In this document: piece after piece, positions 19,437-21,028 of the stretch
How the letters are laid out: the number at the start of each line of letters is the position of its first letter
Position numbering within the stretch: the first letter of the stretch is position 1
From: Saprospiraceae bacterium
GTDB taxonomy: Bacteria > Bacteroidota > Bacteroidia > Chitinophagales > Saprospiraceae
DNA: 26,490 nt
Direction: 5' to 3'
Assembly (NCBI GenBank): GCA_020630045.1
Contig: JAHDCE010000001.1
Coordinates: 1-26,490, forward strand
Notes under the pieces: model-generated
The model's input: only the letters and a program-made list of their open reading frames with translations
What the model was told of the DNA's origin: nothing
Database searches by the model: none
Program-made: the position numbers and the translations under genes

Positions 19437-19937
19437 ATGATTAATAAAAAAGTCATTTTGACTGGTAACTTCGGTGTAGGAAAAACATCTTTGTTTAACC
19501 GCTTTTTCTACAATCGCTTTAGTGATAAATACTTGACCACTATTGGTGTAAAGGTCGATAAAAAAGTTATTCAAGTCGAAAACAAAGAAATTTCAATCTT
19601 GCTATGGGATATCGCAGGAGAAGTATCACAAGATAAAGTTCCGAATTCTTATTTCTTAGGAGCTTCGGGTATCATCTATGTTTTTGATTTGGCTCGACCT
19701 TTGACATTTAATAACATTGTCAAGGATATCGAACATCTTAAAGAGATGATTCCGGACAGCATCGTGAAAATCGTAGGAAACAAAAAAGACTTACTTAGTG
19801 AATCCGCCTTAGCAGAAACACTAGAGGAACTAGCCTTGGAATGCGACATTATTACCAGCGCCAAAACAGGAGAGAATGTCGAAGATCTCTTTGAAAAATT
19901 GGGGATGGATTTATTAGCACTGGAACAAATGAAATAA
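19437..19937 (+). CDS. Rab/Ras-like small GTPase (stand-alone, 166 aa)
   Basis: G1 GNFGVGKT, G2 YLTTIG, G3 WDIAGE, G4 NKKD, G5 TSAKTG, plus Rab-like segments IGVKV, YFLGA and IIYVFDL. No C-terminal Cys prenylation motif. Confidence 0.93.
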   Translation: MINKKVILTGNFGVGKTSLFNRFFYNRFSDKYLTTIGVKVDKKVIQVENKEISILLWDIAGEVSQDKVPNSYFLGASGIIYVFDLARPLTFNNIVKDIEHLKEMIPDSIVKIVGNKKDLLSESALAETLEELALECDIITSAKTGENVEDLFEKLGMDLLALEQMK

Positions 19938-21028
19938 TGCCCATCGGAATTAAACAAGTCAAACATCAAAAACTCGCCAAATTTTGCCAAGTCATACTTA
20001 TGGATATGGAAGGCAATATGGTCAATAGCTGCGACTCTATCTTCGTTACTGAAGAATTGAAGCAGACATTGGTATACGATTGGTTCCCTTTTTTAGAAAG
20101 TATTTTCCCGGTTCTTCTTTCCCTCAAAAAAGAAGACGGACCTTTACGTTTTTCTAAAGTTGAAGAACCTTCCGAATTTTTACCCGGGTATTATGATTTT
20201 TCGTTTTCTAAGGTTGAATTGGAAGGAGGCCATTTTATCCTTTGGGAAATTTATGATTATACCGCCATTTATGAAGATTTCAAACAATACCAGCAAAAGC
20301 GGAATGAACTTGAAATACAAAGGCAAATCCTAGCGCTTCAAAATAAAAAGCTACAAACCAAAAGCGATGTTCTCAATCGATCCAACCTACGGCTTGGACT
20401 ATATGATGAGAATGAAGAGAAAAAAAAAAGTAAAATACTTTTAACTCCAATGGGAGCCATTGATTGGCTGGCCAAGTCTCTCTCCTCCCTTTCCCAAAAA
20501 AATGGAGCCGAACATCTGGATTCTCTATACGAAGCATCCAAAGATATGGATCTGGTCATTGGGGAGTTGATGCGAAATACCAAACAAGATGCAATGCCTT
20601 CCGATAGGGACGGAGCATTCGATTTTAAACGGGTTGTTTCCGAAGTGATAGAACATCTCCACACTTGGATGAGCCCTAGGACCATTCACTTGGTTATTGA
20701 CGATGTGATTCCTAGATACCTTAAGGGAGATGTCAATTGCTTTAGACAAATATTTACCGGGTTTATTATACATCTCAACCATTTGGCGGATGACGCTTTG
20801 CTCAATTTTTATTTTAGAATTAAGCAACGCTCTCAAAGGATTATCCATATTGAAATTGAAGCGACTTGTGAAGGGGAAATGAATACGGAAATCCGATTGC
20901 AAGAAACGATTCTTCGCCTTTCCGTCCTTAAAAGTATAGTCACCGAGATGGAAGGCGAGATGCTCATCGAAACCGAAAAATCTTTCGCCTCTTCTATTTC
21001 CTGTACACTTCCGTTTTTGATGGAATAA
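19937..21028 (+). CDS. PAS-like domain + degenerate histidine-kinase core (predicted pseudokinase)
   Basis: Its start overlaps the GTPase stop (TAATG). The kinase scaffold is recognisable (ILLTPMGAI, FDFKRVV, DDVIPRYLKGDVNCFRQIF, LSVLKSIVTEMEGEMLIET, CTLPF), but the phospho-His, N-box Asn and G-box glycines are absent. Confidence 0.75.
   Translation: MPIGIKQVKHQKLAKFCQVILMDMEGNMVNSCDSIFVTEELKQTLVYDWFPFLESIFPVLLSLKKEDGPLRFSKVEEPSEFLPGYYDFSFSKVELEGGHFILWEIYDYTAIYEDFKQYQQKRNELEIQRQILALQNKKLQTKSDVLNRSNLRLGLYDENEEKKKSKILLTPMGAIDWLAKSLSSLSQKNGAEHLDSLYEASKDMDLVIGELMRNTKQDAMPSDRDGAFDFKRVVSEVIEHLHTWMSPRTIHLVIDDVIPRYLKGDVNCFRQIFTGFIIHLNHLADDALLNFYFRIKQRSQRIIHIEIEATCEGEMNTEIRLQETILRLSVLKSIVTEMEGEMLIETEKSFASSISCTLPFLME

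What the first reader, a model, noticed from the sequence alone, without database searches (positions are those of the whole stretch)
19937..21028. Histidine pseudokinase translationally coupled to the GTPase
Seen: it aligns by eye with the intact kinase in this same window. KILLTPMGAI corresponds to SHEMRTPLHAV (His lost). DDVIPRYLKGDVNCFRQIFTGFIIHL corresponds to KSDVPRYVVGDTKRMDQIFYNLVGNAFKF (N-box Asn residues lost). LRLSVLKSIVTEMEGEM corresponds to GTGLGLSIAYSFVEIQGGKM (G-boxes lost). The reading frame is unbroken for 363 codons and the N-terminal PAS-like domain and coiled coil are retained, which argues for a maintained pseudoenzyme rather than a pseudogene. Established: pseudokinases such as Caulobacter DivL regulate active hybrid kinases allosterically. 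Inference: this protein reads the GTPase state and modulates a partner kinase.
Basis: partly seen in the sequence, partly recalled or inferred. Interest (0 to 1): 0.66.

Follow-up and report, generated by a model that had tools for sequence, protein, structure and literature searches.

The report
Dead histidine kinase in Rup GTPase operon
This gene encodes a sensor-kinase-shaped protein that has lost every residue needed for kinase activity; it is the last gene of a bacterial Rab-like GTPase signalling operon that was catalogued in 2014 and that I found no experimental study of, so it is a real but only moderately new variant.

Summary
ORF 19937-21028 (363 aa) is a PAS fold, a long helix and a kinase-like DHp-CA core. 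Pfam does not detect it. A profile of its family matches solved histidine kinases (GacS E=1e-20, RetS 1.5e-13) and the window's own kinase (hhalign 97.7%).

In this protein the phospho-acceptor His is Lys166, the N-box Asn is His279, and the G1, F and G2 boxes with the ATP lid are deleted or replaced.

It is not a decaying gene. The frame is open in all 11 distinct orthologues examined, at 355-368 aa. The CA part folds confidently. A 69-row clade of relatives contains no intact kinase.

The context is already known. It is the fourth gene of the "Group 1 Rup" module of Wuichet & Søgaard-Andersen (PMC4316618): coiled-coil protein, DUFX, a Rab-like GTPase lacking the G3 Gln, and an output protein with an invariant N-terminal Gln (Q18 here).

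Distant relatives keep intact kinases followed by LytTR regulators. Two sister genera keep only the PAS domain. The PAS-helix part is therefore the conserved core, and the dead kinase half evolves fast.

Modulation of a partner kinase is unsupported. This scan has already reported Rup modules, including dead-kinase variants, on other DNA.

The parts
18193..18543 (+). Coiled-coil protein (DUFY of the Rup module). The listed ORF starts at TTG 18136, but the likely start is ATG 18193.
   Evidence: Searches show only coiled-coil-type weak Pfam hits. Homologues in L001 and L002 start at the equivalent of M20. It is conserved upstream in L001, L002 and L018-L022.
18545..19414 (+). DUFX protein of the Rup module, 289 aa, with no OmpA domain
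   Evidence: No Pfam or NCBIfam hit. It shares 52-60% identity within the genus and was aligned as A5. The A5 profile finds nothing among solved structures. It matches the DUFY>DUFX>Rup order listed for Bacteroidetes in PMC4316618 supplement 2.
19437..19937 (+). Group 1 Rup-type small Ras/Rab-like GTPase, 166 aa. Motifs: P-loop GNFGVGKT, G3 DIAGE (no Gln), NKKD, SAK.
   Evidence: Sequence. Pfam Ras E=4.8e-31. It shares 70-75% identity within the genus.
19937..21028 (+). PAS-helix-pseudokinase protein (P0001, 363 aa); this is the finding
19979..20260 (+). PAS-fold domain (residues 15-108). Q18 is invariant. S31, S55, G84, D87, F90, W103 and D107 are at least 90% conserved. It ends in a DYT (DIT-like) motif.
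   Evidence: Model pLDDT 94.3. PAS matches. Conservation across 58 sequences. No Pfam model and no match to solved structures by sequence.
20261..20347 (+). Long signalling helix (residues 109-137) carrying the conserved YQQKRNELEI motif
20348..20614 (+). Degenerate DHp-like region (residues 138-226). Lys166 (20432-20434) occupies the phospho-acceptor His position. Residues 149-177 are predicted disordered.
   Evidence: No column of this region holds a conserved His in the family.
20615..21025 (+). CA-like (Bergerat-fold) domain without ATP-binding motifs. His279 (20771-20773) is at the N-box Asn position. G1, F box and lid are deleted. G2 GTGLGLS is replaced by ETILRLS (20903-20923).
   Evidence: pLDDT is mostly above 90. 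Alignments.

Best explanation
P0001 is the fourth, output, subunit of a Group 1 Rup small-GTPase signalling module. The module order is coiled-coil protein, DUFX, Rup GTPase, output protein.

Shown:
- It is built as a PAS fold, a signalling helix and a kinase-derived DHp-CA core.
- The core lacks the phospho-acceptor His, the Mg/ATP-binding Asn, the G1, F and G2 boxes and the ATP lid, so it should not be able to autophosphorylate.
- The same loss is shared by a large, old clade of relatives.
- The PAS-helix part is the strongly conserved part and always sits directly after the GTPase gene.
- More distant relatives carry the same PAS-helix on intact kinases that are followed by LytTR response regulators.
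- Two sister genera keep the PAS-helix alone.

Inferred:
- The PAS-helix is the part that couples to the GTPase. It may read the GTPase's nucleotide state, or act on it as the Gln-donating GAP proposed in 2014.
- The dead DHp-CA half no longer transmits by phosphotransfer. It survives as a folded, fast-evolving dimerisation or docking module whose partners, if any, are unknown.
For: Kinase origin:
- Family profile against solved structures: GacS 7z8n E=1.3e-20, RetS 1.5e-13, DivL 3.7e-6.
- hhalign against the window's own kinase: 97.7% probability.
- Foldseek finds full-length PAS-kinase matches.

Motif loss: shown. Of 66 full-length relatives, 5 are intact, 7 partial and 54 degenerate (one of those 54 is a PP2C fusion, not a kinase remnant). 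Pfam detects HATPase_c in 11 of the 66 and HisKA in 6.

Maintenance:
- The frame is open at 355-368 aa in all 11 distinct orthologues examined; a twelfth locus, L010, is an identical copy of L002.
- There are 0 in-frame stops in the 198 C-terminal codons, against 9 and 15 in the other two forward frames. By base composition the chance of an open frame is 4e-6.
- Codon-model omega is 0.024 for the N half and 0.049 for the C half, with dS saturated.
- The CA part is predicted mostly above pLDDT 90.
- In the tree, the 69-row clade holding P0001 has no intact member.

Unequal constraint within the genus: FabH 75-81% identity, GTPase 70-75%, PAS half 57-65%, kinase-like half 17-27%.

Module context: the cassette is conserved in L001, L002, L005-L013, L014, L015 and L018-L022, with the GTPase-to-output spacing between -4 and +46 nt.

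Other forms of the output protein:
- Intact versions are followed by REC and REC-LytTR genes.
- The stand-alone PAS version in L019 is 159 aa, overlaps the GTPase gene by ATGA, and is followed by FabH as in the window.

Literature: PMC4316618 describes this neighbourhood, the missing G3 Gln and the invariant N-terminal Gln. Q18 is invariant in 58 sequences.
Against: - Nothing here shows physical contact between the PAS domain and the GTPase. Adjacency and conservation are the only basis.
- The kinase-like half is kept as an open frame in a large clade, so it probably does something specific that I cannot name.
- dS is saturated in every comparison, so the omega values are rough and probably too low.
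- The counts of degenerate against intact forms come from the 150 best hits to a profile built from the degenerate clade, so they are biased towards degenerate forms.
- Many short stand-alone hits from metagenomes may be fragments. Only the G013 and G014 cases were checked in genome context.
- The tree is short (134 columns) and poorly resolved.
- I could not see the figure in the 2014 paper, so I cannot say whether its invariant Gln is Q18 or Q119/Q120.
Confidence: 0.62

Rival explanations
1. The dead kinase works like RetS or DivL: its DHp-CA half binds an active kinase or a response regulator, for example the REC-PAS-HK-REC / Hpt / REC relay at 13686-16531, and tunes it according to the GTPase state.
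For: - The family profile aligns with RetS and DivL, but as well or better with ordinary kinases.
- The relay lies about 1.6 kb upstream of the cassette, beyond a divergent DUF7033 gene, in the window and in L002/L003 of the same genus.
- Relatives with intact kinases feed response regulators, so the ancestral output was two-component signalling.
- The kinase-like half is retained in a large clade.
Against: - The relay was not found next to the cassette in other genera (L018, L020, L022) or in L001.
- The helix that should form DHp helix 1 is disordered in the model and carries a 13-residue deletion in most genus relatives.
- The kinase-like half shares only 17-27% identity within one genus, which is hard to square with a conserved partner interface.
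- Sister genera lost this half entirely.
- No second protein with this PAS domain was found in the genome.
Confidence: 0.22
2. The C-terminal half is a gene remnant decaying neutrally, and only the PAS part is functional.
For: - The C half evolves 1.5 to 4 times faster at non-synonymous sites than the N half.
- It shares only 17-27% identity within the genus.
- It has been lost outright in two sister genera.
Against: - The frame is open with conserved length in 11 of 11 distinct orthologues.
- The chance of an open frame by base composition is about 4e-6 per genome.
- Omega estimates are well below 1.
- The fold is confidently predicted.
- The LPxxLxGN...LKQIL and ILRLSxxKKLIE...G core motifs are conserved across the family.
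Confidence: 0.06
3. It is still an active kinase that uses a non-canonical acceptor residue and nucleotide site.
For: - The N-box Asn survives in many relatives.
- Pfam detects HATPase_c in one close relative, P0021.
- P0001 has one His (H193) in the DHp-like region.
Against: - H193 is not conserved; the column is mostly Tyr or Leu.
- The G1, F and G2 boxes and the lid are missing in the whole clade.
- P0001 itself has His in place of the N-box Asn.
- There is no Pfam hit at E up to 1.
Confidence: 0.03

Closest known systems
Group 1 Rup GTPase neighbourhood (Wuichet & Søgaard-Andersen, Genome Biol Evol 2015, PMC4316618)
   Same: - Same gene order: DUFY (coiled coil), DUFX, Rup, output protein.
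- The GTPase lacks the G3 Gln.
- DUFX has no OmpA domain, as listed for Bacteroidetes.
- The output protein has a conserved N-terminal region with an invariant Gln.
   Different: - The paper describes the output as a histidine kinase or a GGDEF/EAL protein. Here, and in most close relatives, the kinase core has lost all catalytic motifs, and in some genera it is absent.
- As far as I could read, the paper does not assign the N-terminal region to the PAS fold.
DivL of Caulobacter (histidine pseudokinase, PMC4211667)
   Same: PAS-containing, kinase-derived protein that lacks the phospho-acceptor His and signals without phosphotransfer.
   Different: - DivL keeps a well-formed DHp-CA that binds DivK-P, and it has several PAS domains.
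- P0001 has one PAS domain, a disrupted DHp helix 1 and no ATP lid, and it is coupled to a GTPase gene.
- Binding to a response regulator was not tested.
RetS of Pseudomonas (6dk7/6dk8)
   Same: A kinase-like core that acts through protein contacts rather than through its own autophosphorylation. It is the second-best solved-structure match to the family profile (E=1.5e-13).
   Different: - RetS is a membrane hybrid kinase with receiver domains that heterodimerises with GacS through an intact DHp.
- No such partner or intact DHp is evident here.
Actinobacterial conservon / AGPS (CvnA-D; PMC13343842, PMC13621833)
   Same: An operon that joins a small Ras-like GTPase, its presumed regulators and a kinase-type protein.
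   Different: - Conservons use an MglA-family GTPase with an MglB roadblock protein and a membrane-bound kinase described as catalytically active.
- This module uses a Rup-family GTPase and unrelated partners (no Roadblock hit in Pfam), and its kinase-like protein is soluble and dead.

Membership tests
Histidine kinase (HisKA + HATPase_c) | DHp-CA fold and homology | tested here: met
   Profile against solved structures E=1.3e-20. hhalign 97.7%. Foldseek finds PAS-kinase matches.
Histidine kinase (HisKA + HATPase_c) | Phospho-acceptor His in the H-box | tested here: not met
   Lys166, or a gap, lies at that position in P0001. None of the 28 family members of alignment A1 has His there.
Histidine kinase (HisKA + HATPase_c) | N-box Asn | tested here: not met
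   His279 in P0001. Asn is kept in many relatives.
Histidine kinase (HisKA + HATPase_c) | G1 (DxGxG), F box, G2 (GxGxG) and ATP lid | tested here: not met
   These are deleted or replaced, with ETILRLS at G2. There is no Pfam HATPase_c hit at E up to 1.
Histidine kinase (HisKA + HATPase_c) | ATP binding and autophosphorylation | not testable with these tools
   Needs a biochemical assay.
Group 1 Rup module, output component | Encoded next to a Rup GTPase that lacks the G3 Gln | tested here: met
   DIAGE in P0002. The two genes overlap by 1 nt. Adjacency holds in every locus examined.
Group 1 Rup module, output component | Coiled-coil DUFY and DUFX genes upstream | tested here: met
   The order matches supplement 2 of PMC4316618. 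Homology to the paper's own DUFX and DUFY sequences was not checked directly.
Group 1 Rup module, output component | Conserved N-terminal region with an invariant Gln | tested here: met
   Q18 is invariant in 58 sequences, and Q119 and Q120 are at least 90% conserved. Which of these is the paper's Gln could not be checked because the figure is not held.
Group 1 Rup module, output component | Output domain is a histidine kinase or GGDEF/EAL | tested here: inconclusive
   The domain is kinase-derived but catalytically degenerate. Intact kinases occur in distant relatives.
PAS domain | Five-stranded sheet with flanking helices, matching solved PAS domains | tested here: met
   All 50 listed rows of the exhaustive scan are PAS domains or PAS-containing proteins, with best Z 10.9. 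Foldseek matches YtvA LOV at TM 0.59-0.64. There is no sequence-level PAS hit.
DivL/RetS-type regulatory pseudokinase | Binds and controls a partner kinase or response regulator through the DHp | not testable with these tools
   Only indirect evidence is available, and it leans against.

The most novel reading that the evidence does not exclude
The PAS-helix domain is itself the missing GAP, or the GTP-state reader, of a Rab-like bacterial GTPase. It would supply the invariant Gln18 (or the QQ pair at 119-120) in trans to a GTPase that has Phe at the Ras-G12 position and Glu at the Ras-Q61 position. That would be a PAS-fold GAP, a class not known in any organism. The kinase half would then have become dispensable once the module stopped signalling by phosphotransfer.
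Probability: 0.2. Interest if true: 0.75.

Novelty: new variant of a known kind. Interest (0 to 1): 0.45.

Why it matters
Rup GTPases are the closest bacterial relatives of eukaryotic Rab, Ras and Rho proteins, according to PMC4316618. I found no experimental study of any Rup module.

This locus and its relatives show three natural states of the output protein: an intact kinase followed by LytTR regulators, a dead kinase, and a PAS domain alone. The constant part is therefore the PAS-helix domain, which is the obvious fragment to test for GTPase binding or GAP activity.

The locus also adds a large and old family to the few known bacterial histidine pseudokinases.

Tried and rejected
- Pfam and NCBIfam on P0001 gave nothing significant.
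- Sequence profiles of the PAS domain (A4) and of DUFX (A5) found no solved structure.
- Pairwise dN/dS failed because dS is saturated or undefined in nearly all pairs. Codon-model omega values were obtained, but they rest on very long trees (53 and 75 substitutions per codon site).
- A roadblock or longin fold for the N-terminal domain was considered, because such folds regulate small GTPases. It was rejected: the structural scan returns only PAS domains, and dynein chains appear only at TM 0.36-0.43.
- Sigma-70 promoter, terminator and Bacteroidetes TAnnTTTG scans were uninformative, with counts at chance level.
- Only DNA runs from an algae metagenome hold the locus and no RNA run was listed, so co-transcription was not tested.
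- Literature searches for a Flavobacterium Ras-like GTPase study, or for a GTPase-linked histidine pseudokinase, found nothing specific.

Full report
**What is there.**
The window holds four genes on the + strand, separated by only 1 to 22 nt or overlapping:
- 18136/18193-18543 encodes a coiled-coil protein.
- 18545-19414 encodes a 289-aa protein with no Pfam hit.
- 19437-19937 encodes a 166-aa Ras-family GTPase (Pfam Ras E=4.8e-31).
- 19937-21028 encodes the 363-aa protein of the finding, P0001.

The GTPase stop codon TAA shares its last A with the ATG of P0001. P0001 has no Pfam or NCBIfam hit of any weight.

**Check of the observation.**
- BLASTP aligns residues 227-277 with 375-427 of P0005 (E=0.005).
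- I collected 39 homologues at 25-39% identity, nearly all of similar length, and aligned 28 of them as A1.
- The A1 profile matches solved histidine kinases over the whole DHp-CA region: GacS 7z8n E=1.3e-20, RetS 1.5e-13, HK853 about 4e-9, DivL 3.7e-6.
- The same profile matches P0005 by hhalign at 97.7% probability, E=2e-12.

An AlphaFold2 model (mean pLDDT 79.9) shows these elements:
- a beta-beta-alpha-beta-beta-beta domain at residues 17-107;
- a long helix at 109-137;
- a disordered stretch at 149-177;
- two short helices;
- an alpha/beta domain at 227-363 with pLDDT mostly above 90.

Foldseek matches the whole chain to PAS-kinases such as YF1 (4gcz, E=9e-14) and WalK.

A separate model of residues 1-140 has pLDDT 94.3. 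In an exhaustive scan of 48,161 solved chains, all 50 listed rows are PAS domains or PAS-containing proteins. The best is photoactive yellow protein, Z 10.9, rmsd 2.4 over 91 residues. Foldseek agrees.

**The motifs.**
- Lys166 lies at the phospho-acceptor position in the MAFFT alignment. hhalign places a gap there instead.
- His279 lies at the N-box Asn.
- The G1 and F boxes and the ATP lid are deleted.
- The G2 stretch GTGLGLS is replaced by ETILRLS.
- The only His in the DHp-like region, H193, sits in a column that is mostly Tyr or Leu in relatives.

**Is it a maintained protein?**
All nine other genomes of the same genus carry the gene, in the same place. Across 12 loci (11 distinct sequences, since L010 is identical to L002) the frame is open and 355-368 aa long.

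Within the genus, identity differs sharply between genes and between halves:

| Gene or part | Identity to the window |
|---|---|
| FabH (downstream neighbour) | 75-81% |
| GTPase | 70-75% |
| 289-aa protein | 52-60% |
| PAS half of P0001 | 57-65% |
| Kinase-like half of P0001 | 17-27% |

The C half therefore evolves much faster, but not neutrally.
- It has no in-frame stop in 198 codons, while the two other forward frames have 9 and 15. By base composition the chance of staying open is about 4e-6.
- Pairwise dS is saturated.
- A codon model on the tree gives omega 0.024 for the N half and 0.049 for the C half. I treat these as rough values.

**What the family looks like.**
I searched a profile of the PAS-helix part (A2) against 1.84 billion representative proteins. 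It found 410 clusters at E up to 0.001. Their lengths fall into three groups: about 120-160 aa, about 310-390 aa and about 630-650 aa.

Of the 66 hits of 300 aa or more among the 150 listed:
- 5 have canonical H, N, G1, F and G2 boxes. Three of these are hybrid kinases with REC and Hpt domains.
- 7 are partial.
- 54 are degenerate, including one that is in fact fused to a PP2C (SpoIIE) phosphatase domain.

These proportions are biased, because the profile came from the degenerate clade and only the best 150 hits are listed.

In a quick tree of the PAS-helix part, which is poorly resolved, the intact kinases fall in a 13-row group. The 69-row group that holds P0001 has none. The dead state is therefore old and inherited. 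It also seems to have arisen again next to the intact P0159.

**Context.**
The cassette of coiled-coil protein, 270-330-aa protein, GTPase and PAS protein recurs in several settings:
- in a distant relative with different flanking genes (L001);
- in syntenic relatives (L002/L003);
- with the intact kinases, where it is followed by REC and REC-LytTR genes (L014, L015/L016);
- in other genera of the same family (L018-L022).

The spacing from the GTPase gene to the PAS-protein gene ranges from -4 to +46 nt.

In G013 (locus L019) the PAS-helix protein is only 159 aa. It overlaps the GTPase gene by ATGA and is followed by FabH, as in the window, so the kinase-like half has been removed cleanly. G014 (L018) has a similar short form.

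The window's genome has no second copy of the PAS domain. In an even sample of the phylum, 3 of 300 other genomes had the domain at E up to 1e-5, so the module is sporadic.

**Comparison with what is known.**
Wuichet and Søgaard-Andersen (PMC4316618) defined Group 1 Rup GTPases:
- The GTPases lack the G3 Gln.
- They sit in a neighbourhood of a coiled-coil protein, a protein with a domain of unknown function (often carrying OmpA), and a signal output protein.
- The output protein is usually a GGDEF/EAL protein or a histidine kinase, and its N-terminal region has an invariant Gln.
- The authors suggested that this Gln might be supplied in trans to the GTPase.
- They stated that no Rup system had been characterised.

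Their supplementary table lists Flavobacteriia with DUFY>DUFX>Rup and no OmpA. The window fits on every point: G3 is DIAGE, and Q18 is invariant in 58 sequences while Q119 and Q120 are at least 90% conserved. I could not see their figure, so I cannot say which Gln they meant.

I found no later paper on these modules or on a GTPase-linked histidine pseudokinase. Known histidine pseudokinases in the held literature include DivL (PMC4211667) and PsmA (PMC12963549).

After I had reached this reading, a look-up showed that earlier reports of this scan had filed Rup modules on other DNA under the same paper. Two of them had dead kinases. These agree with my reading but are not independent evidence.

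**How it most likely works.**
The constant features are the PAS-helix part and its coupling to the GTPase gene. The C-terminal output varies: active kinase, dead kinase, phosphatase, or nothing.

I therefore read the PAS-helix as the part that engages the GTPase, either as an effector that reads GTP or GDP, or as the proposed Gln-donating GAP. I read the dead DHp-CA as a folded dimerisation or docking module that no longer transmits by phosphotransfer. This step is inference; no interaction was tested.

- That relay lies next to the cassette only in this genus.
- DHp helix 1 is disrupted.
- The C half diverges too fast for a fixed interface.
- Sister genera do without the C half.

**Verdict.**
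The pseudokinase label is right, and the gene is maintained. The operon belongs to a system that has been catalogued but, as far as I could find, never tested.

The points that appear new relative to the paper are:
- the PAS-fold assignment of the N-terminal region;
- the clade-wide loss of kinase motifs;
- the series from intact kinase to dead kinase to no kinase.

I class it as a new variant of a known kind, of moderate interest.

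Noticed in passing
window 16533-17855 (- strand): A DUF7033 gene, divergently oriented, lies just upstream of the Rup cassette. It is also found there in other genera of the family (L018, L020, L022) and in L002, whereas the REC-PAS-HK-REC / Hpt / REC relay beyond it is adjacent only in this genus.
   Followed up: partly
L019:4378-4857 and L018 about 4165-4690: In two sister genera (G013, G014) the output gene encodes only the PAS-helix part (159 aa in L019; the open frame in G014 is 175 aa). 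In L019 it is followed directly by FabH, as in the window.
   Followed up: yes
L014:5001-7663; L015:5001-7956: Relatives with intact kinase motifs are followed by receiver and REC-LytTR regulator genes. This suggests that the ancestral Rup output in this branch was a LytTR two-component pathway.
   Followed up: partly
protein P0176 (420 aa, metagenomic): The same PAS-helix domain is fused to a PP2C/SpoIIE phosphatase domain instead of a kinase core.
   Followed up: no
window 19437-19937: The GTPase has Phe at the Ras-G12 position (GNFGVGKT) and Glu at the Ras-Q61 position (DIAGE). The Phe is conserved in all relatives seen. This fits a GTPase that needs an unusual GAP without an arginine finger.
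   Followed up: partly
window 18136-18543: The coiled-coil gene probably starts at ATG 18193 rather than at the first TTG 18136, judging from the N-termini of homologues in L001 and L002.
   Followed up: partly
whole window: The only public runs that hold this stretch are DNA runs labelled algae metagenome. The genome is a 724-contig assembly, 88.7% complete.
   Followed up: no
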